Source: Eledone cirrhosa (Eukaryota). From it: a stretch of DNA of 64,000 nt. The notes beneath the pieces are model-generated. The model did no database searches and had not been told where the DNA came from. It saw nothing but the letters and a program-made list of their open reading frames with translations. Below, one piece after another: positions 10,918 through 63,700 of this stretch. The stretch lies in assembly GCA_964016885.1 (NCBI GenBank), contig OZ024742.1, positions 268,150,001-268,214,000 of the forward strand, written 5' to 3'. Position numbers and translations under genes: made by a program. How positions within the stretch are numbered: the first letter of the stretch is position 1; each line of letters begins with the position of its first letter.

Positions 10918-10952
10918 GTTTAAAATAGAGTGGAAAAGATGGGAAAGACCAC

Positions 10953-13267: not shown

Positions 13268-13309
<42 letters not shown>

Positions 13310-13551: not shown

Positions 13552-16500
13552 TTACAGACACATACTCAGAGAAGGCCCATTCATTCGGGCCATACTTGCT
13601 TCTCTCACCCATCTTTCAACAAAATGCTGGGAAGAGAGCACTTCCCTCTATACCCTGATTTTCCTTTTCAAATGAAATTTGAAAAAGTTAATCAGGGCAT
13701 CACCGAAGAGGTAAGTGCTCGTCTTCAGCCCTTTCAAACGTGTCCACCATACTATCTCTTTCGCCATGGCCACCAGACAGATAAAAACTGCCTGCCCTTC
13801 CAGGCTAAAGGAAGGGGGCGGGGCAATCCTCACGATGGACTCAGATGATAGCTGGATAGGTCCTACACGTGACAGCAGGTGTTCGACATAAACCCACAAG
13901 TCAGCAATTCTCGGACACTGGACGAGTGCGTGCAGGACGGTTTCGTCGCCCTGCGCGCATCTCGGACATGCCCGGCTGACGGCACCTCCATGCCTGTAGA
14001 GATTATCCCGAACTGGCAAAGCTCCTCGGTAGCACTGCCAGGCCAGGGATTTCTGGAAGTTGTCCATAGGCCCCGGCCCGAAAGTCCTTCCGAAGAGATT
14101 GGCTTGTTGATTTTCGTCGACGCCTAGAGTTTCTCCAAGTACGTCGTCGCTCTTCCCCTCCACTATTCCCCTATAGAACGCCAAGGTGGAGTTTCCACCG
14201 ATCACATTGCCCGATTGGTCGAGGGCTGTGAGCGCCTGAAGACATTCCAGTCTCCAAGCGCTCCCTCTCGGTCTTCGCTTGACCCAGGACTGCAGCTCCG
14301 TCAAGGAGACGAGCTGGGGAAAAACGTGTCTAGCAAACGGCGACCACACCTGATCACCGTCGAGGAAGAGGTGGAGATGTCGTAGCCTGAGCGCGTGTCT
14401 GCGCATCATCAGCCACGGCATGCCCAGCCCTCCACGTAGCGGGTGTTGACAGCAGATGGACCGCCTGACCATCGGAGCGCGTCCCTTCCACAAGAAGCGA
14501 AAGAGCAAACGCTCCAGCGCAGTCAGGCGGGGCTTAGGACAAGGTACGACGGTCAGGCGGTAGTAGATGACGGATGCGATGTACGCATTCGCCACCTCCG
14601 CTCGACCTTTCAGGGATAGCTTCCTCTCGGCCCATTTCTGGGTGAGAGAAGCCACCCTGCTCGTCACCTCGTCCCAGTTTTTGTCCGTCTGGAGGTCTGG
14701 ACCGAACCAGACCCCTAGCAATTTAACCGGTCCGTCCGTCCAGCGCTCGACGTCGCTGTTGGATGCATGGACCTGCCTCTCCAGGTGCCGAGCTGCAGGC
14801 CCACTGACTTTTCCTGGTTGATCATTGTTCCTGTCACCGCTTCGTATTCTCTTAGTGTAGTGCCGATCACCTCGATGTGTTTGGCGTTCGACACCACTAT
14901 GGTGACATCGTCGGCATATGCTGACACGGATCTTCCGCATCCTAGATCGCGCGGGACCCCACTCAACGTCTCCAGTTTGTGCAGTAATGGCTCGAGAGTC
15001 AATACGTACAATAGTGACGAGAGGGGACATCCTTGGCGGACCGAGCGCATGATGTTGAACGGTTCCGAAAGGTGACCGTTCGCTCTCACTACAGAGCAGA
15101 TGTCGCTGTGCATGGCAGCGATCCAGCCTCTGAAGACGGGCCCAAAGCCAGCCGCCCTCAGGACTGCTGCTAGGTAACGATGGTCGACCCTATCGAAGGC
15201 TTTCGATTGATCTAAATTGATCAAAGACCCACCCTTGCCAGGTTCCCTAGCTACCCTCTCTACGATGTATCGCATGAGGTGGAGGTTGTCGTGGATGGAT
15301 CTGTCGGGAATGGCGCATGTCTGTGCCTCTCCCACCAGACCACCAACGACAAGCGCCAACCTCTTTGCTAGCACCTTGGCTAAAATCTTGAACTCTGTGT
15401 TTAACAGAGTTATGGGCCTAAAATTATCTATGTTATCCCCCTTGTTCGGATCCTTTCTCAGCAGCGCCACCGCTCCTCGGCTCACAGAGCTGGGAATTCT
15501 CCCGTTCTGTTGCCAGTTTCAGTGGACGTCCGCCAAGAGGCCTCCAAACAAGTTTGGCATTTGTACGTAAAGTTCATAGGGCGGACCCTCCAAACCAGGC
15601 GATTTACCCCTTGTGCAACTAGTCATTGCATCCCGTTCTTCAGCGGTTGTTATCGGCTTTTCGCAACACTCCGCCTCAGTGGCCGAAAGCCGCGGCAGTC
15701 CGTCGAGGTAGACACTAAAGTCCATTCCTCGATCCGGCCCGCCACTGCCCCCGAACAGTTGAGCGAAGTGTCGCTGAAAAGCTTCACACATTTTCCCGGG
15801 ATCGAGTAGCATGCGCCCGTCGTGGTCCACCAAAGACCGGATCGTGGCTTTGTTGCCACGACGCGCCTCCGCCACTCGGGCCCATTGAACGGCTTTCGTC
15901 CCCTCGTGTCTGAGAGCACGCACCCTAGCTCTGACAACGCAGCCTTCGTGCTTTGCATTGAAGAATTGGTCAAGGGCCAATTTCGCCGCAAGTACGTCGG
16001 TCGCGATGCCTTTGCTAAGCGCCTCATCTAATGTTCTAACTAGTTCTCCCTCTGCTCTATTTTTCTCTATTGCTAAAGTCTTACTAAACCTAATGGACTC
16101 TATTCTAATTGCTCTTTTCAGAGCAAACCACCACTTGTTGTTGACGATGGCCCCCGTTAACGCCCGCTTAACTAGTTCGCTAATCCGGTCTCTGTAGGCC
16201 TTGCGCGCTGGTAAGGACGCGTTTAGCTTCCAGTAGCCGGGTCCTCGCCTATGAAGCCTATCTAAGTCAAGCATACAGATCACGAATTTGTGGTCCGTGT
16301 AGCTGACTATCTTGAATTGTGGACAGCCTATGCTAGACCTATCTATTTCCCTACAAAATACTCTATCTAGATATGATCTGGATGACCCTATGCGATTTGT
16401 CCAAGTCCACATTGGTACATTCGGGAAATCCATTCGGTACCTGTCAGACAGTTCAAAACGTCTGAGCAGGTTGGTGAGACTCTTGCACCCTCCTTCCCTA

Positions 16501-16970
16501 TCCACTAATCCCACACAATCCCAGCGTGCATTTAAGATCCCGTTCCAGTCGCCCACTAGCACTAAAGAGCGGGACGTTCCAAGAAAGGTCTCCAGACGCC
16601 GGAAGAAATCAGGCCGCCCTGCTCCTGTCGGGGCATAGACGGCCACTAACCTGAAAGCTTGCCCGTCTCCGCTGGTCACGTCCAGCACCACCAACTTACC
16701 TTCTGGGTCCAGGAAGATGGCCCGTATGGCAAGATCCAAACCTCTCCGAAAAAGCACAGCAACTCCTCCCCCCGATCCCGGACGGCTGGGAGATGCGTAC
16801 ACATCGTAGCCGCCGAAGATCGGTGCGAAAGCCTGTGCTTCGGAGATCCTGGTCTCGCTGATGGCCACTACATCTATGTTTAGTGACCTGAGGTCGTTGA
16901 GCAGGTGGCCCTGCTTCCATGATGACCCCAAGCCACGCACATTTATCCTGCCTATTCTGAGTGAGGTCAT
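13552..16970 (-). pseudogene. Tx1 ORF2 (APE-RT-CCHC), disrupted
   Basis: ORF pieces 15519-16970, 14715-15485 and 13648-15030 tile one protein, near-identical to the alpha copy ORF2. Confidence 0.92.
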
Positions 16971-17004
16971 GTTGAAAAGGAGTGGAAAAGATGGGAAAGA
17001 CCAC

Positions 17005-18852
17005 TTACCTTACTTCTCGTAGGGGAAGGACGGTTTTTCCATCCTTTTCACTGCTTGTGGCCTCCTCAGGAAGGATGTCCTTATAAATCCTCCTGGAGAG
17101 TGCTTGTCGGAAGTCTCCGATGTCTTTGGGGATGTAGTGAATAATTGCTTGTTGTTCAAATTTAATGCTGTGTAGTGTGTATCGTTTTGGTTGTTTTGTT
17201 TTGTTTGCGTTTGTTGTGGGTTTGTTTCTGTTTCGCATTTTGGTGACTTTTGTGGTGTAGGTGATGGTGGTGTTGGAGTTAATGATGGTGATGGTGTTGG
17301 TGTTTGGGTTGATGGGGTTGGTGATGCTGGTGTGGATGGTGGCATATCTGTCCTAACTTTTTTGTTTGTTAGTTTATTTGTTTCCCTCTGTATTTTGTTT
17401 TTGGAGGGGGAAGGAAGAGAATTTTTTTCTTTTTTGGTTTCCCACTCCTCGTCGTCACAATCTGTCTCCAGTTGTGATAGGCGGGGGAGTGGAAAATCCT
17501 CCACAGCCGTTAGTTTTGGTTGTGGCGTGGTGGATGGTGTAGGCGCTGGCGCTAGTTCTGAAGCGTTGGGTGGCGGTGGTGTTGATTTTGCTGGTGGTGG
17601 TAGTGGTGTTGGTTTTGCTACTGTTGCTGGGGTTGTTGCTGTTATAGTTGCTTCTGTTGTTGCTGCTACAGTTGTTGCTGCCATCTCTGCTACTGGTGGT
17701 GTTGATGGTTGTGTCACTGGGGTGGGTAGGAGAGGTGGCCTCAACCTTTTAGCCTGAGGGCAGAAAGCCCTTAGGTGGGTTCCTTCACCACAAACGACAC
17801 ACCTAGGTCTTCTGCCCTCGACAATTACCGTGAGGTGGCTGCCGTCAGTGAGGTCTATTACCTCTGGGATCTCCTCAATTCTTTTTTGGTCCGCTTGGAT
17901 CAGGAGCTCCATCCCAGATCCGGACCAGTTTTCCTGCTTTTCTTTTGCTACTGCTATTATTTTCGTGTTGGCTTCGATGCCGGCGAGGACGGCCGCTATT
18001 AGCCAGGGAATTTCGATGACCGGTGGAACGTGGGTCACCCTGATCTTTACGAGTCTCTGGCCACAATAGCTTGGTACGAGTGTGAAGTCGTCACTTTTTA
18101 ATGGGGCCATGGAGTGTTCTCTAGCCTCCTCTGGTGTTTCAAAGAACACGTCCACGGTTCCATACTTTTGCCCACGTCTGATGTGGGTTTTTCTTGCCCA
18201 CACATGTCCCAAAGCTTTTTGGATTTGGGACTCGGATGCCCGTTCCACTCAGCGCGATTTTACATTTATTGTTCTATACGACACGGTGCATAGGCGCCGA
18301 TGCTCCATTTTATTAGGTGGTGGGGGGTGGGTGAGGCTGACCCTGTACCCATCTTTCTTTACCATTTGTTTGGCATTTTCTAAATCTTCCTGAGTTACCG
18401 TACAAGCTTCGAATTGTTTTGCTACTCTGGCGAAACTGAGGGTCGGTTTTATAATGTCATTGTTGTTGTTGTTGCTATCGTTAATATTAATTTTAGTTTC
18501 AGTTGTGGTGGTGTTGACGTCAGTCGTCTTTGGTGGGGAAGAGTCCATTTTGCTTGATTTCATTTCGACGTCACGAGTTAATTTATTTTTTTCTTCTTTT
18601 TTTTCTATTGTCGCGGTGGTGGTGGTGGTGGTGGTGGTCGCGGTGGTGGTGGTGGTGGAGGCTTTAACACCTGCAGTCATTGGTAATGGCGGGAAATGAA
18701 TGTCTGCCTGAGACAAATTTAAAATATTGCTACTGCTTATATTTTTTTTTTGTGTTGGCAAACGTAGTAACATTTACAATGGTGGTGTCGGTGTGAGGTG
18801 TTAATTTGTGAGGAAGGCTTTCAGCTGCTTGTTGCAGAGGTGAATTAGCCAT
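17005..18852 (-). pseudogene. Tx1 ORF1 beta (Thr/Asn-rich N-terminus, CVVCGEGTHLRAFC knuckle, Pro/Thr-rich tail), disrupted
   Basis: TGA at 18249 where the 57 kb copy has CGA; frameshifts in homopolymer runs; deletion near 17132 relative to the copy at 55250-55370. Confidence 0.85.
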
Positions 18853-19085
18853 TTTTTTTCAAAGAAATATTTTGATAATAATAAAAGTTAAAATTTTGGG
18901 CACAAGGCCTCAATCTTTTTAGGTGTCCTTTTCGGAAAACAATGTATGTGTGCTTATAAACAGTTAACAATAAAATTTTCCATAAATGGCAATTTTTAAA
19001 CAAACGGAAATAACAAACCTTTGCGGAGCTCACGATAATACGATTTCCTACGTAGGTCGCCAATAATAATAATAATAATAATAAT

Positions 19086-20305
19086 ATTAATCGTGGAATT
19101 TTTCAGGGTGACTCTTTATCACCGCTTTTATTCTGCATCGCGCTTATACCATTAAGTAAAATGCTCAATGAAACAAAACATGGATATAAAGTCTATGACA
19201 AAACCATTAATCACTTGTTCTACATGGATGACCTGAAACTATTTGCAAAAAATGATGAACAATTGCAAGGGCTATTATCCACTGTGGAGCAGTTCAGTGA
19301 TGACATTAAAATGGAGTTTGGACTGGATAAATGCGCCAAAGCAACGTTCACCAGAGGAAAGATGCTGAAAAGTTCAGACATTAATCTTGATCGAGGGAAT
19401 GTGATAAGAGAAATTGATCAAGAGGAAACTTACAAATATCTAGGTGTTTGTGAAGGAGACGGAATCAAACACTCGACAATGAGGGAAAGGATAAGGAAGG
19501 AATGTTACCGCAGAGTAAGAGCAATCTTCAGAACGGAATTGAATGCAAGGAATAGGATCGATGCCATAAACACGCTTGCCATACCAGTAGTAACCTACAG
19601 TTACAATGTCATCAACTGGTCAAGCACAGAGATCCGTAGGCTCGATACAAAAATTCGAAAATTCTTAACCATGCACAGAATGCATCACCCTAAGGCAGAT
19701 ACAGATAGAATATATCTCCCTAGGAAAGAAGGAGGACGTGGGTTAATCCAGTTAGACATTGCGTTGAAAACTGCAACAATTGGATTATCTACATATCTAA
19801 GGGAATCACATGATTGGATGATCAAACTCGTTTTGATGCACGAAAGCATCAAAAGATCATACTCCATTACAAAAGATGCACAAAGATACAGTAATGGACT
19901 GCACATTTCAGAAGTCCCATTTACTGCTGAAATGGAAAACACAGAAAAAGCAAAGCAGGTAAAAGTAACTGCAAAGAAATAACTGCTACAGAAACTGGCT
20001 AAGAAATGGCAAGAAAAGCCTCTGCATGAAAAATACCCAGAACGAGCTAACAATCTTGATGTTGACAAAACTTTAACCCATTAGTGGTTGGCATCCTCTG
20101 GACTGAAATCGGAGACTGAAGGACTGATTATATCAGCACAAGATCAGTGTCTGCCAACAAAAAATTACCAAGCCAACATAATAAAAAACGGATGCAGCCC
20201 ATTATGCCGTGTATGCAAAAAACAACCAGAGACCATTGATCATATAATTTCAATGTGCAGTCCTATAGCTCCAACCGAATACCTAAACAGGTATGACAGA
20301 GCTGC
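19086..20305 (+). mobile_element. Dong-B internal fragment (RT to CCHC), degenerate
   Basis: GIFQGDSLSPLLF, HLFYMDD, CRVCKKQPETIDHIISMC; stops at 19980 and 20082. Confidence 0.93.
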
Positions 20306-30194: not shown

Positions 30195-31115
30195 GGAGCC
30201 AATGCTCAGAACTGTACTGAAGGAGGGGACAATAGGCCAGGGGATGCCCAAGGAGGAAATAACATCAAGGAAAAAGAGCAGCCTTCAGGGAAAATCCCTT
30301 CATAGTACCTTCTTTGAGAAAACTGAATTTAGAGATCCACAGACATGGAACTGGTTGAGAAGAGGAGACCTCAAAAAGGCTACAGAAGGAATGTTAATGG
30401 CTGCGCAGGAGCAGGCCCTCAAAACGAAGTGGTTGAAACACCATATTTAAAAGGAGGAGGCTAGCCCACTGCAGGATCTGTGGAGAGAGAGAGGAGACTG
30501 TGGCTCATATTGTATCCGAGTGTAGACACCTAGCCCAGACCCACTATAAGGGCTGGAGACATGATGTGATGGGCAGGGTGATCCACTGGCACCTGTGCAA
30601 AGTAAACAATTTACCACATTCTGAGAAATGGTATGAGCATAAACCAGAGGCGGTGATGGAGAACGATCAGGTGAAGGTGGTGTGGGATTTTAGGAGACAG
30701 ACGGACAAGAAACTGGAACACAATAGACCTGACCTGGTGGTTGTGGACAAAGAAAAAAGATGGTGTCTGATTGTGGATGTGGCCTGCCCATTCAACACGA
30801 GAGTGCAAGAGAAGGAGAAGGAGAAAATTAACCGATACCAGGACTTAAAGTGGGAGGTAAAAAGGATTTGGAACTGCCATGAAGTCAAAGTGAACCCGAT
30901 TGTCATAGGCGCACTGGGGACTATCTCCAAAAGTTTCCAGGGATGGTTAAATAAAATCGGCCCCTTCACGCCTTTTGAAACGCTTCAAAAGGCATGCTTT
31001 CTGGGAACAGTAAGAACCCTCCGATACGTCCTGAATATCTGAGGCTGCAGGTAGTGGCTTGATATTCATTCCAACGGACTTTCCAGTTAACTAACATCAA
31101 TGACTGAGATTAAAG

Positions 31116-31116
<1 letters not shown>
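30192..31116 (+). mobile_element. 5'-truncated Dong-A copy (CCHC + RLE + 3'UTR)
   Basis: ORFs 30121-30450 and 30500-31042 match the intact copy; (AAT)n on both sides. Confidence 0.94.
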
Positions 31117-31185
<69 letters not shown>

Positions 31186-32978
31186 CCGCTTTTATTCTGC
31201 ATCGCACTTATACCATTAAGTAAAATGCTCAATGAAACAAAACATGGATATAGAGTCTATGACAAAACCATTAATCACCTGTTCTACATGGATGACCTGA
31301 AACTATTCGCAAAAAATGATGAACAATTGCAAGGGCTATTATCCACTGTGAAGCAGTTCAGTGATGACATTAAGATGGAGTTTGGACTGGATAAATGCGC
31401 CAAAGCAACGTTCACCAGAGGAAAGCTGCTGAAGAGTTCAGACATTAATCTTGATCGGGGGAACGTGATAAGAGAGCTTGATCAAGAACAAACTTACAAA
31501 TATCTAGGTGTTTGTGAAGGAGACGGAATCAAGCACTCGACAATGAGGGAAAGGATAAGGAAGGAATGTTACCGCAGAGTCAGAGCAATCTTAAGAACGG
31601 AATTGAATGCAAGGAATAGGATCGATGCCATAAACACGCTTGCCATACCAGTAGTAACCTACAGTTACAATGTCATCAACTGGTCAAGCACAGAGATCCG
31701 TAGGCTCGATACAAAAATCCGAAAATTCTTAACCATGCACAGAATGCATCACCCTAAGGCAGATATAGATAGAATATATCTCCCTAGGAAAGAAGGAGGA
31801 CGTGGGTTAATCCAGTTAGACATTGCGTTGAAAACTGCAACAATTGGATTATCCACATATCTAAGGGAATCACATGATTGGATGATCAAACTCGTTTTGA
31901 AACACGAAAGCATCAAAAGATCATATTCCATTACAAAAGATGCACAAAGATACAGTAATGGACTACACATTTCAGAAGTCCCATTTACTGCTGAAATGGA
32001 AAACACAGAAAAAGCAAAGCAGGTAAAAGTAACTGCAAAGAAAGAACTGCTACAGAAACTGGCTAAGAAATGGCAAGAAAAGCCTCTGTATGGAAAATAC
32101 CCAGAGCGAGCTAACAATCCTGATGTTGACACAACTTTAACCCAATAGTGGTTGGCATCCTCTGGACTGAAATCGGAGACTGAAGGACTGATTATATCAG
32201 CACAAGATCAGTGTCTGCCAACAAAAAATTACCAAGCCAACATAATAAAAAACGGATGCAGCCCATTATGCCGTGTATGCAAAAAACAACCAGAGACGAT
32301 TGACCATATAATTTCAATGTGCAGTCCTATAGCTCCAACCGAATACCTAAACAGGCATGACAGAGCTGCACAATACATACATTGGATAATGTGTAAGCAT
32401 TTTGACCTGCCCCATCAAAAGAATTGGTGGGAGCATCAACCACCTCCCATACTTGAGAAAGATCACATCTCAATCTTGTGGAACTTTAGCATCCAAACAG
32501 ACCGAAAAATAGATGCAAATAGACCTGATATAATATTGAAGGACTTTAAAAAGAGGGTATGCCTGCTAATTGATATGTCTGTTCCAATAGACAAGAATGT
32601 ATCTATAAAAACATTTGAAAAATTGAGCAAGTATAAAGACCTGGAGATAGAAATTGAAAAAATGTGGAAATTGAGAACTAAAACAATACCAGTGGTTGTA
32701 GGCGCTCTGGGAATGATACCTAGGGGGTCTAATGATTACTTATCGCAAATCCCAGGAAACCCGCGTATAGGAGAAATACAAAAGATAGTACTAATGGGAA
32801 CTACCCATATACTAAGGAAGATTCTGTCAATATAAGTACATCACAACTCTAAACACTAAATACATGTGTGAGTATGTATGTTCTTTCTTGGACATGGCGG
32901 ACCTTGTTGTCTCTTGCGGTCACTGGTTGTGACTTGGTGATAACTCGTATGAACATAAAGCAAGATAAATGCAACTGT
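31186..32978 (+). mobile_element. 5'-truncated Dong-B copy (RT C-half, CCHC, RLE, 3'UTR)
   Basis: ORFs 31225-32148 and 32152-32835 are separated by a single TAG; (AAT)n on both sides. Confidence 0.94.
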
Positions 32979-42090: not shown

Positions 42091-42675
42091 TAATAACATA
42101 AGAATATGTATACACAACAGAGTGTATATTGTGTAAATTGCGTCTCTAAAATGTGTAACTCACTCTTAATCAGAATATGTATATAAATAAACACACACTC
42201 TCACACAGAGAAGTAGCACATGCACAACCCAAGCAGACAGCACATAACAGAAAAACAAGATGGTGTAGGATAGAACAAAGTAGAGGCACAAAACAAAAAC
42301 CCAGTCACTGAGGAGATCACACAATGTGTGAGGAAAGAGCTTGAAAGTAAATAAATAACCATCCAGTATCGAACCAACCAGCCAAACGGAAATCTATAAT
42401 AAATTGAAATGAAAGCTAACAGGTGCGTGTGTGTTTATTGACAGTATGACCCTCCGAAAGTATAATAATATTTGTTTCAACGCACGTTTTCAGATAAGAA
42501 ATCTTGGAAAACAAATTCAAAAACGAAGTACATATATATGAATATAGATAGGGCTTTCATGGTGTGTTCCTTCGGATGAAACAGTTCTAGTCATATAGAA
42601 GCCATTGCTATACTAAAAAAATTTACTCAGCTCTGTATTGAGTACCTTACTGTGGTTACCCCGATTGAACCCTGA

Positions 42676-42766
<91 letters not shown>

Positions 42767-42925
42767 GAATTGGAGCTCTTAAATAGCAATATATATATGA
42801 ATGTATATATAATGTATTTTGCAATACATTTTATGCTTAATTAAAAGCATTTTGAAGACCCTATGCTATTGTTTTACAGTAGTGACAAACTCACTTATTT
42901 TAATCTCAGCAAACAAGGGGAGATA

Positions 42926-42970
42926 AGCCGACAAGGCCTTGTTTCGCATTTATTGATGCTTATCATGGCT
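42926..42970 (-). ncRNA. Hammerhead copy in the inverted unit (core position 3 mutated to A)
   Basis: Minus strand AGCC-AUGAUAA-GCAU-CAAUAA-AUGC-GAAA-CAAGGCCUUGUC-GGCU. Confidence 0.65.
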
Positions 42971-43153
42971 AACTACTCCCTCCTGTCTACTGAGATCACT
43001 GATGTTATCTTCTTATTGGTATTTCAGAGCTCCAATTCTAATTTTTAATTTATGCCTGACCGGCAACCGCTCTGTATAATCAGTTCCTGATTATTTACTG
43101 GAATTCTATAAGAATATAACATCAGTGATCTCAGTAGACAGGAGGAAGTAGTT

Positions 43154-43198
43154 AGCCTTGATAAGCATCAATAAATGCGAAACAAGGCCTTGTCGGCT
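43154..43198 (+). ncRNA. Type I hammerhead ribozyme, U3-A8 core, palindromic helix III
   Basis: AGCC-UUGAUAA-GCAU-CAAUAA-AUGC-GAAA-CAAGGCCUUGUC-GGCU; all helices pair; GUC cleavage after 43194. Confidence 0.85.
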
Positions 43199-43473
43199 TA
43201 TCTCCCCTGTTTTCTGAGATTAAAGTAAGTGAGTTTGTCACTACTCTAAAACAATAGCATACGGTCTTCAAAATGCTTTTAATTAAGCATAAAGTGTATT
43301 GCAAAATCCATTATATATACATTCATGTATATATATTGCTATTTCAGAGCTCCAATTCTAATTTTTAATTTCTGCCTGACCGGCAACCGCTCTGTATAAT
43401 CAGTTCCTGATTATTTACTAGAATTCTATAAGAATATAACATCAATGATCTCAGTAGACAGGAGGGAGTAGTT

Positions 43474-43518
43474 AGCCTTGATAAGCATCAATAAATGCGA
43501 AACAAGGCCTTGTCCGCT
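43474..43518 (+). ncRNA. Second tandem hammerhead copy (one helix I mismatch)
   Basis: Same as 43154 except GUC-CGCU; lies 320 nt downstream. Confidence 0.75.
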
Positions 43519-43642
43519 TATCTCTCCTTGTTTGCTGAGATTAAAGTAGTTGAGTTTGTCACTACTCTAAAACAATAGCATACGGTCCTCAAAATGCTTT
43601 TAATTAAGCATAACAAGTATTGCAAAATACATTATATATACA

Positions 43643-43708
<66 letters not shown>

Positions 43709-51687: not shown

Positions 51688-54600
51688 TTACAGACACATA
51701 CTCAGAGAAAGCCCATTCATTCGGGCCATACTTGCTTCTCTCACCCATCTTTCAACAAAATGCTGGGAAGAGAGCACTTCCATCTCTAGCCTGATTTTCC
51801 TTTTCAAATGAAATTTGAAAAAGTTAATCAGGGCATCACCGAAGAGGTAAGTGCTCGTCTTCAGCCCTTTCAAACGTGTCCACCATACTATCTCTTTCGC
51901 CATGGCCACCAGACAGATAAAAACTGCCTGCCCTTCTCGGCTAAAGGAAGGGGGCGGGGCAATCCTCACGATGGACTCAGCTGATAGCTGGATACGTCCT
52001 ACACGTGACAGCAGGTGTTCGACATAAACCCACAAGTCAGCAATGCTTGGACACTGGACGAGTGCGTGCAGGACGGTTTCGTCGCCCTGCGCGCATCTCG
52101 GACATGCCCGGCTGACGGCACCTCCATGCCTGTAGAGATTATCCCGAACTGGCAAAGCTCCTCGGTAGCACTGCCAGGCCAGGGATTTCTGGAAGTTGTC
52201 CATAGGCCCCGGCCCGAAAGTCCTTCCGAAGAGATTGGCTAGTTGATTTTCGTCGACGCCTAGAGTTTCTCCAAGTACGTCGTCGCTCTTCCCCTCCACT
52301 AATCCCCTATAGAACGCCAAGGTGGAGTTTCCACCGATCACATTGCCCGATTGGTCGAGGGCTGTGAGCGCCTGAAGACATTCCTGTCTCCAAGCGCTCC
52401 CTCTCGGTCTTCGCTTGACCCAGGACTGCAGCTCCGTCAAGGAGACGAGCTGGGGAAAAACGTGTCTTGCAAACGGCGACCACACCTGATCACCGTCGAG
52501 GAAGAGGTGGAGATGTCGTAGCCTGAGCGCGTGTCTGCGCATCATCAGCCATGGCATGCCCAGCCCTCCACGTAGCGGGTGTTTACAGCAGATGGACCGC
52601 CTGACCATCGGAGCGCGTCCCTTCCACAAGAAGCGAAAGAGCAAACGCTCCAGCGCAGTCAGGCGGGGCTTAGGACAAGGTACGACGGTCAGGCGGTAGT
52701 AGATGACGGATGCGATGTACGCATTCGCCACCTCCGCTCGACCTTTCAGGGATAGCTTCCTCTCCGCCCATTTCTGGGTGAGAGAAGCCACCCTGCTCGT
52801 CACCTCGTCCCAGTTTTTGTCCGTCTGGAGGTCTGGACCGAACCAGACCCCTAGCAATTTAACCGGTCCGTCCGTCCAGCGCCCGACGACGATGTTGGAC
52901 GGCATGGAGCTGCCTCTCCAGGTGCCGAGCTGCAGGCCCACTGACTTTTCCTGGTTGATCATTGCTCCTGTCACCGCTTCGTATTCTCTTAGTGTAGTGC
53001 CGATCGCCTCGATGTGTTTGGCGTTCGACACCACTACTGTGACATGGTCGGCATATGCTGACACGGATCTTTCGCATCCTAGTTCGCGCGGGACCCCCCT
53101 CAACGTCTCCAGTTTGTGCAGTAATGGCTCGAGAGTCAATACGTACAATAGGGACGAGAGGGGACATCCTTGGCGGACCGAGCGCATGATGTTGAACGGT
53201 TCCGAAAGTTGACCGTTCACTCTCACTACAGAGCAGATGTCGCTGTGCATGGCAGCGATCCAGCCTCTGAAGACGGGCCCAAAGCCAGCCGCCCTCAGGA
53301 CTGCCGCTAGGTAACAATGGTCGACCCTATCGAAGGCTTTCGACTGATCTAAATTGATCAAAGACCCACCCGTGCCAGGTTCCCTAGCTACCCTCTCTAC
53401 GATGTATCGCATGAGGTGGAGGTTGTCGTGGATGGATCTGTCGGGAATGGCGCATTTCTGTGCCTCTCCCACCAGACCACCAACGACAAGCGCCAACCTT
53501 TTTGCAAGCACGTTGGCCAAAATCTTGAACTCTGTGTTTAGCAGAGTTATGGGCCTAAAATTATCTATGTTATCCCCCTTGTTCGGATCCTTTCTCAGCA
53601 GCGCCACCGCTCCTCGGCTCACAGAGCTGGGAATTCTCCCGTTCTGTTGCCAGTTGCAGTAGACGTCCGCCAAGAGGCTTCCGAACAAGTTTGGCATTTG
53701 TACGTAAAGTTCATAGGGCAGACCATCCAAACCAGGCGATTTACTTCAGCGATTTACTTCAGCGGTTGTTATCGGCTTTTCGCAACACTTCGCCTCAGTG
53801 GCCGAAAGCCGCGGCAGTCCGTTGAGGTAGACACTAAAGTCCATCCCTCGATCCGGCCCGCCACTGCCCCCGAACAGTTGAGCGAAGTGTCGCTGAAAAG
53901 CTTCACACATTTGCCCGGGATCGAGTAGCATGCGCCCGTCGTGGTCCACCAAAGACCGTATCGTGGCTTTGTTGCCACGACGCGCCTCCGCCACTCGGGC
54001 CCATTGAACGGCTTTCGTCCCCTCGTGTCTGAGAGCACGCACCCTAGCTCTGACAACGCAGCCTTCGTGCTTTGCATTGAAGAATTGGTCAAGGGCCAAT
54101 TTCGCCGCAAGTACGTCGGTCGCGATACCTTTGCTAAGCGCCTCATCTAATTTTCTAACTAATTCTCCCTCTGCTCTATTTTTCTCTATTGCTAAAGTCT
54201 TACTAAACCTAATGGACTCTATTCTAATTGCTCTTTTCAGAGCAAACCACCACTTGTTGTTGACGATGGCCCCCGTCAACGCCCGCTTAAGTAGTTCGCT
54301 AATCCGGTCTCTGTAGGCCTTGCGCGCTGGTAAGGACGCCTTTAGCTTCCAGGAGCCGGGTCCTCGTCTATGAAGCCTATCTAAGTCAAGCACACAGATC
54401 ACGAATTTGTGGTCCGTGTAGCTGACTATCTTGAATTGTGGACAGGCTATGCTAGACCTATCTATTTCCCTACAAAATACTCTATCTAGATATGATCTGG
54501 ATGACCCTATGCGATTTGTCCAAGTCCACATTGGTACATTCGGGAAATCCATTCGGTACCTGTCAGACAGTTCAAAACGTCTGAGCAGGTTGGTGAGACT

Positions 54601-55089
54601 CTTGTACCCTCCTTCCCTATCCACTAATCCCACACAATCCCAGCGAGCATCTAAGATCCCGTTCCAGTCGCCCACTAACACTAAAGAGCGGGACGTTCCA
54701 AGAAAGGTCTCCAGACGCCGGAAGAAATCAGGCCGCCCTGCTCCTGTCGGGGCATAGACGGCCACTAACCTGAAAGCTTGCCCGTCTCCGCTGGTCACGT
54801 CCAGCACCACCAACTTACCTTCTGGGTCCAGGAAGATGGCCCGTATGGCAAGATCCAAACCTCTCCGAAATAGCACAGCAACTCCTCCCCCCGATCCCGG
54901 ACGGCTGGGAGATGCGTACACATCGTAGCCGCCGAAGATCGGTGCGAAAGCCTGTGTTTCGGAGATTCTGGTCTCGCTGATGGTCACTAGATCTATGTTT
55001 AGTGACCTGAGGTCGTTGAGCAGGTGGCCCTGCTTCCATGACGACCCCAAGCCACGCGCATTTATGCTGCCTATTCTGAGTGAGGTCAT
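51688..55089 (-). pseudogene. Tx1 ORF2 (APE-RT-CCHC) broken by one deletion/duplication at about 53740-53765; YADD changed to YADH
   Basis: ORFs 53746-55089 (447 aa) and 51688-53730 (680 aa); GATTTACTTCAGC is duplicated at the lesion. Confidence 0.92.
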
Positions 55090-55123
55090 GTTGAAAAGGA
55101 GTGGAAAAGATGGGAAAGACCAC

Positions 55124-57109
55124 TTACCTTACTTCTCGTAGGGGAAGGACGGTTTTTCCATCCTTTTGACTGCTTGTGGCCTCCTCAGGAAGGATGTCCT
55201 CATAAATCCACCTGGAGAGTGCTTGTCGGAAGTCTCCGATGTCTTTGGGGAATTTTTGTTTTAGTGTCATGTACGTTTTCTGTGTGATGCGAGTGATTTG
55301 TATGTGTGGAGGTGGTGTGAATTTTGGGGTTGTTGTGTAGTCTTTTTCTGTGATGCTGGTGTTGTGTTGGATGTAGTGTAATAATTGCTTGTTGTTCATA
55401 TTTAATGCTGTGTAGTGTGTATCGTTTTGGTTGTTTTGTTTTGTTTACGTTTGTTGTGGGTTTGTTTCTGATTCGCATTTTGGTGACTTTTGTGGTGTAG
55501 GTGATGGTGGTGTTGGGGTTAATGATGGTGATGGTGTTGGTGTTTGGGTTGATGGGGTTGGTGATGCTGGTGTGGATGGTGGCATATCTGTCCTAACTTT
55601 TTTGTTTCTTAATTTATTTGTTTCCCTCTGTATTTTGTTTTTGGAGGGGGAAGGAAGAGAATTTTTTTCTTTTTTGGTTTCTTTTTTTTTCCGGATATCG
55701 TTTCCCACTCCACGTCGTCACAATCTGTCTCCAGTTGTGATAGGCCGGGGAGTGGAAAATCCTCCACAGCCGTTAGTTTTGGTTGTGGCGTGGTGGATGG
55801 TGTAGGTGCTGGTGCTAGTTCTGAAGCGTTGGGTGGTGGTGGTGTTGGTTTTGCTGGTGTTGGTGGTGGTGGTGTTGGTTTTGCTACTGTTGCTGTGGTT
55901 GTTGCTGTTATAGTTGCTTCTGTTGTTGCTGCTACAGTTGTTGCTGTCATCTCTGCTACTGGTGGTGTTGATGGTTGTGTCACTGGGGTGGGTAGGAGAG
56001 GTGGCCTCAACCTTTTAGCCTGAGGGCAGAAAGCCCTTAGGTGGGTTCCTTCACCACAAACGACACACCTAGGTCTTCTGCCCTCGACAATTACCGTGAG
56101 GTGGCTGCCGTCAGTGAGGTCTATTACCTCTGGGATCTCCTCAATGCTTTTTTGGTCCGCTTGGATCAGGAGCTCCATCCCAGATCCGGACCAGTTCTCC
56201 TGCTATTCTTTTGCTATTGCTATTATTTTCGTGTTGGCTTCGATGCCGGCGAGGACAGCCGCTATTAGCCAGGGAATTTCGATGGCCGGTGGAACGTGGG
56301 TCACCCTGATCTTTACGAGTCTCTGGCCACAATAGCTTGGGACGAGTGTGAAGTCGTCACTTCTTAATGGGGCCATGGAGTGTTCTCTAGCCTCCTCTAG
56401 TGTTTCAAAGAACACGTCCACGGTTCCATACTTTTGCCCACGTCTGATGTGGGTTTTTCTTGCCCACACATGTCCCAAAGCTTTTGGATTTGGGACTCGG
56501 ATGCCCGTTCCACTCGGCGCGATTTTACATTTATTGTTCTATACGACACGGTGCATAGGCGCCGATGCTCCATCTTATTAGGTGGGGGTGGGGGTGGGGG
56601 GTGAGGCTGACCCTGTACCCATCTTTCTTTAGCATTTGTTTGGCATTTTCTAAATCCTCCTGAGTTACCGTAAATGCTTAGAACTGTTTTGCTACTCTGG
56701 CGAAACTGAGGGGGGGGGGGGTTATAATGTCATTGTTGTTGTTGTTGCTATCGTTATTTGTGTTAATATTAATTTTAGTTTCAGTTGAGGTGGTGGTGAC
56801 GTCAGTCGTCTTTGGTGGGGAAGAGTCCATTTTGCTTGATTTCATTTCGACATCACGAGTTAATTTATTTTTTTCTTCTTTTGTTTCTGTTGTCGCGGTG
56901 GTGGTGGTGGTGGTGGAGGCTTTAACACCAGCAGTCATTGGTAATGGCGGGAAATGAATGTCTGCCTGAGACAAATTTAAAATATTTCGAGTGCTTATAT
57001 TTTTTTTTGTGTTGGCAAACGTAGTAACATTTACAATGGTGGTGTCGGTGTGAGGTGTTAATTTGTGAGGAAGGCTTTCAGTTGCTTCGTGCAGAGGTGA
57101 ATTAGCCAC
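55124..57109 (-). pseudogene. Tx1 ORF1 beta, frameshifted
   Basis: Fragments 56678-57118, 56203-56478, 55609-56178 (CCHC), 55445-55708 and 55124-55399. Confidence 0.85.
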
Positions 57110-57317
57110 TTTTTTCAAAGAAATTTTTTTGATAATAATAAAAGTTTAAATTTTGGGCACAAGGCCCCAATCTTTTTGGGTGTCCTTTTCGGAAAACAAT
57201 GTATGTGCGCTTATAAACAGTTAACAATAACATTTTCCATAAATGACAATTTTTAACAAACGGAAATAACAAACCTTTGCGGAGCTCAGGATGATACGAT
57301 TTACTACGTAGGTCGCC

Positions 57318-57356
<39 letters not shown>

Positions 57357-57382
57357 ACTACTACTAATAATAATAATAATAA

Positions 57383-60300
57383 ATTGATCAGATGTAGCTA
57401 TTAGCACAAAGTCAACGAAGGGAAAATGAAACATGTGTCAGTGAAAACGAGGTAAATTGTAACACTTCGAATTCCAGGGTTGGGACGGAATCACTGACAA
57501 CAGAACAAATTAAAGAAAGGATCGATAAAGTGGAGGGAGTGCATGCTCAAGATGAAACTCCAAATGAAAATAATGAGATCGCAAATGATAAAGAAATGAA
57601 TGAGAATGAACTTGCCAACTTGAAGGATGAAATTATGATCGAATGGATGAAATTGAAAGAATCTGACATGGGGCAACGAGACACCCTCCCTAAGATCCAG
57701 AACTCCAAACAGAACCAAAAGATAATACACAAGACTAACATAATTCTCAAAAACATTATCATCACAAACAAACTAAAAATTACTGATTTAAATCATATCT
57801 ATTATGCATCGGCTAAAGTCACCACTCACTTATGTGGAGTGAAGATGAAAAAACAAAGGAATTCCCACAAGAAATCTACTTGGCAAGAGAACATCAATCG
57901 CCAAATAAAGCTTCTCCGATCTGACATAAAAATTTTAACAAACTATAAAGTAGGTGAACATGTTAAACAAACTGAACTTAGAAAATTGAAAAAAAAGTAC
58001 AGTATAAAATCAACAAGTGACATAGACATGCTGATAGAAATAATCAAACAAAAAGTGTCGGCCAAAGCTGCTCGTATAAGGCGCTTTGAAAAACGATCTA
58101 GATTCTATAAGGACAATAATATGTTCAAAATCAACCAAAGAAACTTCTACAGAAAAATTGGTAAGTCAACAATAACTGCTAAATCAATACCACCCAAGGA
58201 GGAAGTGCAAGAATTCTGGGAAAAGATCTGGGCCGAAGAAAAAGTTCATAACATACATGCCCCATGGATAGACAGACAAATGAAAGATACAGCTCACCTT
58301 GAGGAACAAATATAGGAAAATATAACACTTGAACAGTTGCGCTTGGCTCCAAGAAAAACCAGCAAATGGAAATCCCCAGGAAAAGACAAAATACAAAACT
58401 TTTGGATAAATGCCTTCACAGAGTCTCATGAGCTGTTAGCCCAACTTTACAATGAAATAGTTAAGGAGCCAGAAAAGATACCATCATGGCTAGTTAACGG
58501 CATTACATTCCTGCTTCCAAAGAATGATGAGACAAACAATCCCAAAAATAACAGACCGATAACTTGCTTGACCACAATGTATAAAATTTTAACATCAGTC
58601 CTAACTGAATACACATATGACCTCCTGATAACAAATGACCTATTTCCCATTGAGCAGAAAGGGTGTAAACGAGGCTCATATGGCTGTAAGGTTCAGCTTC
58701 TGGTTAACAAAATGATACTGGAAGATTGTCATAATAGACACAAAAATCTATCGATTGCTTGGATAGATTATAAACAAGCATTCGATAGTTTGCCACACAG
58801 TTGGATTGAAAAATGTTTAGAGATTTTCAAAATATCCCCCGTTGTCAGGAGGTTTTTGTCATTCAGTATGAAGACATGGAAAACGACACTCCTTTTGAAT
58901 AGTGAAACAAAATCACTGGAAGCTGGAGAAGTTAATATTAATTGTGGAATTTTTCAGGGTGACTCTTTATCACCGCTTTTATTCTGCATCGCGCTTATAC
59001 CATTGAGTAAAATGCCCAATGAAACAAAACATGGATATAAAGTCTATGACAAAACTACTAATCACCTGTTCTACATGGATGACCTGAAACTATTTGCAAA
59101 AAATGATGAACGATTGCAAGGGCTATTATCCACTGTGAAGCAGTTCAGTGATGCCATTAAAATGGAGTTTGGACTAGATAAATGCGCCAAAGCAACGTTC
59201 ACCAGAGGAAAGCTGCTGAAGAGTTCAGACATTAATCTTGATCGGGGGAACGTGATAAGAGAACTAGATCAAGAAAAAACTTACAAATATCTAGGTGTTT
59301 GTGAAGGAGACGGAATCAAGCACTCGACAATGAGGGAAAGGATAAGGAAGGAATGTTACCGCAGAGTAAGAGCAATCTTAAGAACGGAATTGAATGCAAG
59401 GAATAGGATCGATGCCATAAACACGCTTGCCATACCAGTAGTAACCTACAGTTACAATGTCATCAACTGGTCAAGCACAGAGATCCGTAGGCTCGATACA
59501 AAAATTCGAAAACTCTTAACCATGCACAGAATGCATCACCCTAAGGCAGATATAGATAGAATATATCTCCCTAGGAAAGAAGGAGGACGTTGGTTAATCT
59601 AGTTAGACATTGCGTTGAAAACTGCAACAATCGGATTATCTACATATCTAAGGGAATCACATGATTGGATGATCAAACTCGTTTTGAAACACGAAAGCAT
59701 CAAAAGATCATATTCCATTACAAAAGATGCACAAAGATACAGTAATGGACTACAAATTTCAGAAGTCCCATTTACTGCTGAAATGGAAAACACAGAAAAA
59801 GCAAAGCAGGTAAAAGTAACTGCAAAGAAAGAAATGCTACAGAAACTGGCTAAGAAATGGCAAGAAAAGCCTCTGTATGGAAATACCCAGAGCGAGCTAA
59901 CAATCCTGATGTTGACAAAACTTTAACCCATCAGTGGTTGGCATCCTCTGGACTGAAATCGGAGACTGAAGGACTGATTATATCAGCACAAGATCAGTGT
60001 CTGCCAACAAAAAATTACCAAGCCAACATAATAAAAAATGGATGCAGCCCATTATGCCGTGTATGCAAAAAACAACCAGAGACCATTGACCATATCATTT
60101 CAATGTGCAGTCCTATAGCTCCAACCGAATACCTAAACAGGCATGACAGAGCTGCACAATACATACATTGGATAATGTGTAAGCATTTTGACCTGCCCCA
60201 TCAAAAGAATTGGTGGGAGCATCAACCACCTCCCATACTTGAACAAGATCACATCTCAATCTTGTGGAACTTTAGCATCCAAACAGACCGAAAAATAGAT

Positions 60301-60750
60301 GCAAATAGACCTGATATAATATTGAAGGAGTTTCAAAGGAGGGTATGCCTGCTAATTGATATATCTGTTCCAATAGACAAGAATGTATCTATAAAAACAT
60401 TTGAAAAATTGAGCAAGTATAAGGACCTGGAGATAGAAATTGGAAAAATGTGGAAATTGAGAACTAAAACAATACCAGTGGTTGTAGGCGCTCTGGGAAT
60501 GATACCTAAGGGGTCTAACGACTACTTATCGCAAATCCCAGGAAACCCGCGTATAGGAGAAATACAAAAGATAGTACTAATGGGAACTGCCCATATACTA
60601 AGGAAGATCCTGTCAATATAAGTACATCACAAGTCTAAACACTAAGGATGCATGTGTGAATATGTATGTTCTTTCTTGAACATGGCGGACCTTGAGGTCA
60701 CTGGTTGTGACTTGGTGATAACTCGTATGAACATAAAGCAAGATAAATGC
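57383..60750 (+). mobile_element. Near full-length Dong-B element (RT, CCHC, RLE), disrupted, probably slightly 5'-truncated
   Basis: ORF pieces 57530-58315, 58337-59602, 59615-59926 and 59857-60621 tile an R4-type protein; (AAT)n on both sides. Confidence 0.93.
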
Positions 60751-60751
60751 A

Positions 60752-60781
<30 letters not shown>

Positions 60782-60783
<2 letters not shown>

Positions 60784-63700
60784 AAAACTAAGTCAGACAT
60801 TCGAACACTACATTAAAATGAAACTTATGCTTATTCATTTTGGGGGTCTTTTCTGCCTGTTTGATTGTTTGTTTGTTTGTTTGTTTGTTTGTGTTCGTCT
60901 ACAGCGTGGTGATAATGCCACACAAGAGCCAAGTGGAGCGGCTCAACCACCGGAGACGGTGAATCCACAGATGGTTATGTAACCATACATTCGCCAATCC
61001 TCGATAAGAGTGTTTAAATATCGAACCTAAACAGTTCGAATAACGGTGAAATGGAGACTAGAACGTCATGTGACAGTCTCTCACCCAACAGGTGCTCCCT
61101 GGCTCAGCAGCAGGAACCTGGCTGTCAACCAAATACTGCTGGTGTCGGAGGAAGAAGAAGAAGGAAAGGGACCAGAACCAACTGGACGAAAAAATTGAAT
61201 AGAACTGTTATGCAATGTTACCTGAAAAGTAACCCCAAGGAGAGGGGCTATAGGAGACGGATGCATAACATCTGGAACGAGATTGGTCTATTTAAATTAG
61301 ATGAACAAAAATTGGCCGGGCAGGCTCGGGTAATAAGAACTAATGGGTGGATAAGCGAGCTGGAACTGGAGGAACTGAGCAGAGAGATTAGCTTGGAGAT
61401 GGAGGGTGGAGTATGCCAGGCAAACGAACCAGTGGGAAATGAAGGTGAAGAGGTCGAGAGAACGGAGGAACCACCCGAAGCAGACAATGATCTGAATACT
61501 GAGATAAATAATACCTGGAACAGAGATACGGCCACTGAGGAGATGAATGCTGACGGGCGAGGACAAGATTCGGTTCACATCCTAAATTTAGTGGTAGATG
61601 AATTGAACAATGATAGTGGGAGACCTATGAACCTAAGATTTGTAGACAGGAAAAAGTTAAAAGAAACAACAGCTAAGGTAAAAAAAAGTCATCCCATACC
61701 TTGAGGCGAGGAACCTTCACCAGTGCAACAATATCCTCAAAGCAACAGCAAATACGGTGAGGAAACTACTTGGTATAAAACCGAGAGAAAACAACAGACA
61801 AGAAAGAGCAGAGCCTTGGTGGAAGAAACGACTGAGTGGTCAAATCAGGGAAATGAGAAATGACATTGGAAAAATTGAGTCACTAAAGAATGGGACACTA
61901 AAAAACATAGGCACTAAAAATAGACTGGAAATAAAGTACAAAACTAGGAGGAAAAAGCTAAATATTGTCATAGAGGAACTGAAGCAACGCATTGTAGCAA
62001 AGAGTGCAAAAATCAGGCGATACGAGAACAGAGTCAGTCAGTATAAACAGAACCGCATGTTCGACAATAACCAGACGATGCTGTTTGGACAGCTTGAGGG
62101 GAAAGAAAGAGGCAACGATTTGATCCCTGAGGCGGAACAAACTAAGACATTCTGGAGAGGAATATGGGAGTAGGATGTTAGACATAATGACCAGGCAGGG
62201 TGGATTGAGACAGTACAGATGGAGATCGGTGAGCAGGCACACCAACAAACTGATTTGAGTATCACAGTTGAAACTCTTAAGGGGCAGGCCAAACAACTAA
62301 CCAACTGGAAATCACCAGGCCCAGATGGTGTGCAGGGGTATTGGATTAAAAATATAACATCCCTCCACCCGAAACTGACAACCATGTTCAATGACTGCTT
62401 GATGTCAGGTGAGGTACCAGAGTGGTTGACAAAAGGTACCACAGTTCTGATAATGAAAGACCGAATCAAGGGTAATGATGTTACCAACTATAGACCTATC
62501 ACATGTCTGTCCGTAATGTTGAAACTGTTGACGAGCATTGTGTCTGAGGAAATCTACCATCACCTCCACACAAACAACATGTTACCGGACGAACAGAAAG
62601 GATGCCGAAAGAAGTCACGTGGTACAAAGGACCAGTTACTTATTGATAAGATGGTAATGGGGAATTGCAGGAGGAGACACACTGATCTTGCCATGGGATG
62701 GATAGACTACAGAAAGGCATTTGACATGGTGCCTCATTCTTGCATCACCAAAAGCCTGGAGATCTTCAAGGAGGCAGATAACATCAGACAGTTGTTGGGC
62801 AAGAGTATGAGGTCCTGGGAAACAGAGTTGACATCAACTGGAGAATCCTTGGGAAGCGTGAAGATCAAGAGAGGTATCTTCCAGGGAGATAGCCTGTCCC
62901 CTCTGTTGTTTGTCCTTGCCCTGATGCCCCTGACCAGTGTACTGCGAAAAGTGAGAGCAGGATACGGGTTGGGAAAGGGAGGGCTTACCATCAATCACCT
63001 CCTCTTCATGGACGATCTTAAGCTCTTCGGGAAGAGTGAGAAGGAGTTGGATGTGCTTGTTGACACTGTCCGTATTTTCAGCAGTGGTATATGTATGCAG
63101 TTTGGTATTAGTAAGTGTGGAGTCATTGTGATGAGGAGTGGTATGTTGAGCAGAAGTAACGGAATCCAGATACCAACAGGTGAGATGATAAAGGAAAGTG
63201 ACTCTGAGGAAGGATACAAGTATTGGGGCGTTCTGGAGGCTGATAGCATAAAGAACAAAAAAATGAAGGAATTGTTAAGAACTGAATACATTCGGAGAGT
63301 AAGGAGCGTATTGAAGTCACATCTGAACAGCAGAAATGCCATAAGCGCAGTAAATTAAAGAGCTGTGTCAATTATTAGGTACAGTGTGGGAATTCTGAGA
63401 TGGAATGTTGCTGAACAAAAAGAAATGGATAGGAAGACTAGGAAGCTATTGACTATCTACAACATGTTCCACAAGAGGAGTGATGTCGATAGAATCTACC
63501 TAAGGAGACCTGAGGGTGGAAGAGGTCTTATCAGCATAGAGGACTGTGTTCAGATGGAGAAAAACAACCTACACAAATAAGTGACTGATAGTAAGGAGCC
63601 AATGCTCAGAACTGTACTGAAGGAGGGGACAGTAGGCCAGGGGATGTCCAAGGAGGAAATAACATCAAGGAGAAAGAGCAGCCTTCAGGAAAATCCCTTC

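What the first reader, a model, noticed from the sequence alone, without database searches (positions are those of the whole stretch)
42762..43650. 320-bp tandem + inverted hammerhead element (retrozyme-like) with a U3-A8 core inserted in (TA)n
Seen: two direct 320-bp units plus an inverted partial unit, with no ORF. Each carries AGCC-UUGAUAA-GCAU..AUGC-GAAA-CAAGGCCUUGUC-GGCU, or a one-base variant. The usual C3-G8 pair is replaced by the compensatory U3-A8, and helix III is a 12-nt palindrome. Established: metazoan non-LTR retrozymes are tandem monomers of a few hundred nt with type I hammerheads that give circular RNAs; Penelope pLTRs form tandem and inverted copies with palindromic-helix-III hammerheads acting as dimers. 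Inference: cleavage at 43194 and 43514 would release a 320-nt monomer able to circularise. This would be a non-autonomous ribozyme replicon mobilised by a Penelope-like RT.
Basis: partly seen in the sequence, partly recalled or inferred. Interest (0 to 1): 0.78.

Follow-up and report, generated by a model that had tools for sequence, protein, structure and literature searches.

The report
Hammerhead retrozyme with Penelope insertion footprints
This is one copy of a roughly 320-base, protein-free jumping element, present thousands of times in this animal genome, that carries a predicted self-cutting RNA (hammerhead ribozyme) and whose insertion ends have the signature of Penelope-type retrotransposons, so it likely spreads by borrowing their enzymes.

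Summary
Observation confirmed. The locus has two 320/321-bp units and an inverted partial arm in (TA)n. It belongs to a dispersed superfamily: 332 exact copies of this ribozyme core and 9,496 of a shared 24-nt motif. Rfam scores are below threshold, but the hammerhead fold is supported by covariation across subfamilies. Position 3-8 switches between U-A and C-G and stays paired in 33 of 33 aligned copies.

The insertions carry the Penelope (PLE) footprint: head-to-head arms, a (TA)n target, and a ~29-nt 'tail' on exactly one end in 33 of 38 classifiable inverted insertions (both ends tailed: 0). Intact young Neptune PLEs in the same genome make the same two-ended insertions, and three Neptune families also use U3-A8.

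No copy was contiguous with a PLE ORF, and no homologous pLTR was found, so this is not an ordinary solo pLTR. The partner enzyme is unidentified. Self-cleavage and circles were not testable. This copy is decayed: the second ribozyme has a helix I mismatch and the inverted one has A3·A8.

Verdict: a new member of a known kind (animal non-LTR retrozyme, non-autonomous PLE) with unusually direct genomic evidence of PLE mobilisation.

The parts
42678..42762 (.). (AC)n(AT)n microsatellite, left part of the target
42762..42791 (-). ~29-30-nt 'tail' ending the inverted arm (second fixed end, inferred RT start site 2)
   Evidence: 1,586 exact tail-(AT)n junctions genome-wide
42762..43016 (-). Inverted, 5'-truncated arm: unit positions 95-321 plus tail
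42926..42970 (-). Hammerhead of the inverted arm; core has A3·A8 (A at 42966), predicted inactive
43014..43016 (.). Head-to-head junction with 3-nt overlap between the arms
43014..43333 (+). Unit 1, 320 bp; 4 differences from the subfamily majority over ~267 aligned columns
43126..43222 (+). Long extended helix I enclosing the hammerhead; 8 of 13 distal pairs change on both sides across subfamilies
43154..43198 (+). Intact type I hammerhead 1: helix I 43154-57/43195-98, core 43158-64 with U3-A8, helix II 43165-78, palindromic helix III 43182-93, predicted cut after C43194
43225..43347 (+). Possible 123-nt spliceosomal intron (GTAAGT ... TTCAG) crossing the unit junction; splicing not shown
   Evidence: GTAAGT in 128 of 167 and TTCAG in 99 of 105 motif-selected sites
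43334..43654 (+). Unit 2, 321 bp; 9 differences from the majority; ends without tail in (TA)n (fixed end 1, inferred RT start site 1)
43474..43518 (+). Hammerhead 2; predicted cut after C43514; C43515 breaks the first helix I pair, predicted impaired
43646..43706 (.). (TA)n microsatellite, right part of the target

Best explanation
This is a slightly decayed copy of a protein-free ~320-bp retroelement superfamily (an animal non-LTR retrozyme) that carries a predicted type I hammerhead and is likely inserted in trans by the RT/GIY-YIG protein of a Neptune-type Penelope element. Shown: tandem monomers, a covarying ribozyme fold, (TA)n targets, two fixed 3' ends about 29 nt apart, head-to-head arms with the tail on one end only, variable 5' truncation, no ORF. 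Inferred: a master locus is transcribed as a multimer; two ribozymes pair through the palindromic helix III and cut; the monomer is likely circularised by a host ligase; the PLE protein cuts both strands of (TA)n and primes cDNA from each at one of the two internal sites; copying through the monomer junction gives 1-7 units per arm; the two cDNAs join head-to-head by microhomology.
For: Copy numbers: 332, 9,496 and 1,586 exact pattern hits, controls 0. Covariation on 33 copies: 92.5% of cells paired, 16 of 26 pairs change on both sides, 0 of 500 shuffles reach it, slid controls 36-46%. Pair 3-8: 73 U-A, 46 C-G, 2 U-G and 5 other among 140 segments, 14 without a core. Ends: of 39 head-to-head insertions, 33 have one tailed and one untailed end, 5 have two untailed, 0 two tailed, 1 unclassifiable (P = 1.2e-6 on the 38). 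This is the described PLE signature (PMC8557442), and the tail equals the distance between two internal RT starts (PMC11167929). An intact 938-aa Neptune ORF flanked by U3-A8 pLTRs exists, with family copies ~97% identical in protein; that family makes the same two-ended insertions into (TA)n (5 loci). Palindromic helix III: no hairpin alone, -19.5 kcal/mol as a duplex; the monomer ribozyme fold lies 4.9 kcal/mol above the best fold. cDNA runs through cut sites, and 5' ends are not enriched at the cut (3 of 119 within 3 nt), which excludes a cut linear monomer as the usual template. One locus holds six complete units ≤0.4% apart but 7.5% from any other locus.
Against: No PLE with a homologous pLTR was found: 0 of 90 GIY-YIG loci (six Neptune-type families and one other group) and 0 of 24 further loci of one family; about 10,600 GIY-YIG candidates exist, so the sample is small. 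Tail lengths of the sampled Neptunes are ~68, ~62 and ~35 nt, not 29. Uncut multimeric RNA explains the DNA pattern equally well, and for the anole PLE ribozyme cleavage was not needed for insertion in vitro. Only 1 of 9 predicted Xenopus retrozyme dimers cleaved in vitro. Rfam scores are below threshold. The shuffle control ignores relatedness, and I picked the 33 rows by hand for completeness and diversity.
Confidence: 0.8

Rival explanations
1. Same element and same PLE machinery, but the template is an uncut read-through multimer. The hammerhead is a structural or regulatory element and no circle is an intermediate. This is a variant of the best explanation that differs only in the RNA step.
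For: Insertion ends ignore the cut site. HHR mutants of the anole PLE insert normally in vitro. Most arms hold only 1-2 anchor motifs (92 of 101).
Against: The catalytic core stays paired through a C3-G8/U3-A8 switch, and all helices covary, which points to selection on catalysis. No position-specific variants distinguish first from second units in subfamily A (0 shared differences in 12 within-locus pairs, star-like family). Circles are documented for coral, mussel and axolotl retrozymes.
Confidence: 0.35
2. Ordinary solo or truncated pLTRs of one autonomous Penelope element not yet sampled.
For: pLTR-like anatomy (hammerhead, splice-like signals, tail). Xenopus retrozymes match pLTRs in 24 of 57 families. 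Flanks examined were only 1.5 kb for 60 loci and 4-5 kb upstream for 40.
Against: Units repeat head-to-tail at a fixed 314-324-bp period, up to 7 times, with unit sequence and not ORF upstream. In 101 insertions none joins an RT/EN frame; the 8 loci with a PLE protein hit have it on the other strand, kilobases away, behind a (TA)n run, or as an N-terminal fragment beside an inverted tail end. An ancestral origin from a pLTR remains likely.
Confidence: 0.08
3. A LINE-mobilised SINE-like repeat with twin-priming inversions, or a satellite spread by DNA-level processes.
For: The window is full of APE/RT LINEs; twin priming also gives head-to-head arms (recalled).
Against: No poly(A) or simple-repeat 3' tract of its own; priming is internal at two fixed sites; the one-end tail is described as not seen in LINE TPRT. 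Dispersed copies with common 3' ends and variable 5' ends argue against satellite spreading.
Confidence: 0.07

Closest known systems
Animal non-LTR retrozymes (Cervera & de la Peña 2020, PMC7229834; coral, mussel, axolotl)
   Same: Tandem 150-450-bp low-GC units, one type I hammerhead per unit, no ORF; dimer-type ribozyme as in axolotl; PLEs were proposed there as the likely mobiliser.
   Different: Here mostly 1-3 units, dispersed, with PLE-type inverted arm and tail; 12-nt palindromic helix III; U3-A8 in many subfamilies; RNA circles not shown.
Retrozymes as non-autonomous PLE derivatives (Li, Clavereau, Pollet, bioRxiv 10.64898/2026.07.22.740005)
   Same: Same overall conclusion; unit length near their amphibian and insect averages (313-316 bp).
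   Different: They argue from co-occurrence and pLTR homology. Here no pLTR homology was found and the evidence is the insertion footprint; the word 'tail' has 0 occurrences in their text.
Penelope-like elements, Neptune/Poseidon (Cervera & de la Peña 2014 PMC4209133; Arkhipova 2013 PMC3846280; Craig 2021 PMC8557442; Frangieh 2024 PMC11167929)
   Same: Partial tandem plus inverted truncated copy, 30-40-bp tail at one end, microsatellite target, hammerhead with palindromic helix III, U3-A8 variant, two internal RT starts.
   Different: No RT/GIY-YIG ORF; the whole element is one repeating unit.
Non-autonomous Chlamys PLEs such as MRC1 (Craig 2021)
   Same: Non-autonomous, multicopy head-to-tail PLE-type insertions.
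   Different: Those share 3' sequence with an autonomous family and belong to a clade described as lacking canonical hammerheads.

Membership tests
Animal non-LTR retrozyme | Tandem repeats of 150-450 bp in many genomic copies | tested here: met
   320/321-bp units; arms with 2-7 anchor motifs in 37 of 101 insertions; 9,496 motif hits
Animal non-LTR retrozyme | Type I hammerhead in each unit | tested here: met
   Covariation in helices I, II, III and pair 3-8; Rfam HH9 only below threshold; two of the three ribozymes of this copy carry damaging changes
Animal non-LTR retrozyme | Non-coding, low GC | tested here: met
   Longest stop-free frame 67 aa, GC 33.8%
Animal non-LTR retrozyme | Self-cleavage in vitro (monomer or dimer) | not testable with these tools
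   Folding only
Animal non-LTR retrozyme | Expressed as linear and circular monomer RNA | not testable with these tools
   No run on record as RNA was available
Animal non-LTR retrozyme | Target-site duplication longer than 4 bp when present | tested here: inconclusive
   Both flanks are (TA)n, so a duplication cannot be read
PLE-mobilised element | Partial tandem plus inverted 5'-truncated copy, head-to-head | tested here: met
   39 of 41 two-orientation insertions head-to-head
PLE-mobilised element | 30-40-bp tail at one end only | tested here: met
   29-36 nt; 33 of 38 one-tailed, 0 two-tailed; 1,586 exact tail-(AT)n junctions
PLE-mobilised element | Microsatellite / AT-rich target | tested here: met
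   Most ends run into (TA)n
PLE-mobilised element | Sequence shared with the pLTR of an autonomous PLE | tested here: inconclusive
   0 of 90 and 0 of 24 PLE loci, out of about 10,600 GIY-YIG candidates
Autonomous PLE or its solo pLTR | RT plus GIY-YIG ORF between or next to the repeats | tested here: not met
   No contiguous ORF in 101 insertions

The most novel reading that the evidence does not exclude
An orphan retrozyme superfamily of about 10^4 copies that no longer shares sequence with any host PLE, yet is copied from a 320-nt circle by a dimeric Neptune protein that primes both target strands at two fixed sites 29 nt apart. It has switched its catalytic pair between C3-G8 and U3-A8 while staying mobile, and keeps a spliceosomal intron across the monomer junction. 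With intact Neptune ORFs in the same genome this would give a defined enzyme-template pair to test directly how animal ribozyme circles re-enter DNA.
Probability: 0.3. Interest if true: 0.65.

Novelty: new member of a known kind. Interest (0 to 1): 0.42.

Why it matters
Which enzyme inserts animal retrozymes was left open in 2020 (LINE or PLE) and argued from homology and co-occurrence in 2026. Here the insertions themselves carry the PLE-specific one-end tail and head-to-head geometry, at high counts. The family is also a natural covariation series for dimeric hammerheads, including the C3-G8/U3-A8 switch within one lineage. The class, the U3-A8 variant and the PLE link are all in print, so the surprise is moderate.

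Tried and rejected
Rfam scan: hammerhead hits below gathering score only.

Expression: no RNA holder listed. Three contig runs of unknown kind, from one sample, were laid twice. They showed subfamily variants and the monomer junction, no donor-to-acceptor joint, and no recurrent run-on into other sequence among the loose ends displayed. None of this bears on expression or splicing.

Parent search: the unit profile against 90 + 24 PLE loci gave three real hits (L032, L107, L176), each a separate insertion. A tail-length match to Neptune family L110 (first read as 28 nt) proved to be ~35 nt; weak lead only.

No conserved reading frame: the AUG in helix II of this subfamily is absent in the sister family. 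The cluster of 5' ends near profile position 68 may be an alignment artefact between subfamilies and was not used.

Earlier scan findings: none returned. Literature searches for an octopus or tail-based description found none beyond the papers cited; subscription journals, Repbase and Dfam were not searchable, so the family may already be annotated there.

Full report
OBSERVATION. Units 43014-43333 and 43334-43654 are 94.8% identical, and 42762-43016 is an inverted arm made of unit positions 95-321 plus the first 30 nt of a following unit. The arms meet head-to-head with a 3-nt overlap, and both 3' ends point out into AT microsatellite. There is no ORF (longest stop-free frame 67 aa) and GC is 33.8%. 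The type I hammerhead of unit 1 is intact, with C17 at 43194. Unit 2 has C at 43515, breaking helix I pair 1.1-2.1. The inverted arm has A3·A8. Rfam finds all three only below threshold.

FAMILY. The window lies in a 3.0-Gb animal genome (a cephalopod is my recalled guess, untested). The unit has 1,701 first-look candidates, of which 40 were scored, with full-length copies at 93-98%. The 37-nt core occurs exactly 332 times, control 0. A sister family turned up in a PLE locus (2,767 candidates). A 24-nt motif shared by both occurs 9,496 times, control 0. I fetched 40 regions from the first 100 listed hits of that motif (20 chosen mainly for one motif variant or odd spacing, 20 mostly single hits). 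Where enough of the unit is kept, they are 314-324-bp units of several subfamilies. In subfamily A, 40 units lie on average 0.7% from their majority (biased, being best hits); the window's units differ at 4 and 9 of about 267 columns, so this copy is older than those and not the source.

RIBOZYME. Among 140 segments from 97 loci, pair 3-8 read U-A 73, C-G 46, U-G 2 and other 5 (two of these look like parsing shifts, one is the window's inverted arm); 14 had no core. I aligned 33 of these, picked by hand for completeness and diversity and leaving out chimeric or truncated ones. On the named structure, 92.5% of 854 cells pair, 16 of 26 pairs change on both sides, 0 of 500 shuffles reach this, and slid controls give 36-46%. 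All four helix II pairs, 2 of 4 proximal and 8 of 13 distal helix I pairs covary; pair 3-8 is 19 U-A, 13 C-G, 1 U-G, none unpaired. The shuffles ignore relatedness, so the number of independent changes is smaller than the cell counts. Helix III stays palindromic or nearly so while changing sequence. The region folds well (z -5.35; predicted monomer z -6.27), but the best monomer fold pairs the core away. The ribozyme fold costs 4.9 kcal/mol more, while two helix III strands pair at -19.5 kcal/mol, and do so in the best fold of the dimer. Dimer cleavage is therefore the likely mode (inference). U3-A8 is known from about 1,300 Schistosoma PLE motifs (PMC4209133, parts 1-2 of 4 read).

INSERTION FOOTPRINT. 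In 96 loci (three overlapping duplicates and one region without the motif dropped) I found 101 insertions. Sixty showed one orientation by the anchor motif (36 untailed, 24 tailed; short inverted arms lacking the motif are missed). Forty-one showed both, 39 of them head-to-head. Of these 39, 33 have one end at unit position ~321 and the other ~29-36 nt further on; 5 have two untailed ends (some look eroded); none has two tails; 1 was unclassifiable. Random placement gives P = 1.2e-6 for no double tail. The tail-(AT)n junction occurs exactly 1,586 times. Craig et al. describe PLE insertions as partial tandems with an inverted truncated copy and a 30-40-bp tail often at one end only, not seen in LINE TPRT (PMC8557442, passages; also PMC3846280, passages). 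Frangieh et al. show for an anole PLE that both target strands are cut and extended, and that the tail is the distance between two internal RT starts (PMC11167929, parts 1-2 of 4). 5' ends are spread along the unit, with 3 of 119 within 3 nt of the cut site, about the uniform expectation. Arms often run through one or more ribozyme sites, so the template is a circle or an uncut multimer, not a cut linear monomer. Six complete units at L130 are ≤0.4% apart and 7.5% from any other locus; two sister-family insertions share 4 and 9 private changes between arms against 0.5 between loci, while three others share 1. This fits one template per insertion but does not separate circle from multimer, and local duplication could also explain L130.

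PARTNER. The genome has 10,597 GIY-YIG candidates. Ninety fetched PLE loci fall into six Neptune-type families (clade name from the CxxC linker, as described) plus six loci of another type. L091 is intact and young, with U3-A8 hammerheads in both pLTRs, and its family shows the same geometry with ends 68 nt apart in five loci. Two more families have U3-A8 cores. None shares sequence with our unit: the three profile hits are separate insertions, and 24 more loci of the family with the closest tail (~35 nt) gave none. Conversely no unit joins a PLE ORF: 8 unit-bearing loci had PLE protein hits, none contiguous. So the solo-pLTR reading is rejected and the specific partner stays open.

MECHANISM. 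Shown: unit structure, covarying fold, target, two fixed ends, one-end tail, variable 5' ends, no ORF. Inferred: multimer transcription, dimeric self-cleavage, host-ligase circularisation (as found for coral, mussel and axolotl retrozymes; PMC7229834, abstract, passages and Discussion), trans-capture by a Neptune protein, two-strand priming and head-to-head joining. I put PLE mobilisation near 0.9, an active ribozyme in the family near 0.75 and a circular intermediate near 0.5. Against the RNA steps: ribozyme cleavage was dispensable for the anole PLE in vitro, and only 1 of 9 Xenopus dimers cleaved. Conserved donor- and acceptor-like motifs (128 of 167 and 99 of 105 motif-selected sites) suggest an intron across the junction; these counts are partly circular and splicing is unshown.

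NOVELTY. The class is published, and a 2026 preprint (parts 1-3 of 5 read; supplements closed, and they may hold similar families) concludes that animal retrozymes are non-autonomous PLE derivatives. My searches found no description of this family or of tail-based evidence for a retrozyme; repeat databases could not be checked. Verdict: new member of a known kind, interest 0.42. What it adds is the countable PLE footprint and a ready enzyme-template test system.

Noticed in passing
window 42230-42540 and 42540-42680: Two decayed remnants of other hammerhead repeat families sit directly left of the element and end in the same microsatellite (matches to motifs seen in L040 and L106): a nested (TA)n hotspot.
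   Followed up: partly
L091 (G000:C1:145868500-145876500), ORF 3809-6622 minus: Intact Neptune-type PLE: 938-aa stop-free frame with RT, CxxC linker and GIY-YIG, two 750-bp pLTRs 99% identical, each with a U3-A8 hammerhead; family has two ends 68 nt apart.
   Followed up: yes
L032 2438-2871, L061-L090, L111-L150: Sister subfamilies at 70-90% identity with C3-G8 or U3-A8 cores and different (near-)palindromes in helix III; one has 2,767 first-look candidates.
   Followed up: yes
L101 7068/7579; L118 5575/5995; L141: Further tandem hammerhead repeats with ~510- and ~420-bp periods, unrelated to this unit: more retrozyme families in this genome.
   Followed up: no
L091, L110 and this unit, tail regions: In this family and two Neptune families a YAG acceptor-like site lies about 19-21 nt after the first insertion end, which begins with TATA; two other Neptune families do not show it. 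Possible link between splice signals and RT start site; read by eye.
   Followed up: partly
window 2101-19982, 30437-32835, 51688-63358: Many LINE fragments (RVT_1, APE endonuclease, zf-RVT), several next to (AAT)n runs; a 1141-aa RT frame at 2101-5526; a 390-bp two-copy tandem at 6848-7625.
   Followed up: no
L096, L105: Neptune insertions that are large inverted duplications of the ORF 3' half, head-to-head.
   Followed up: no
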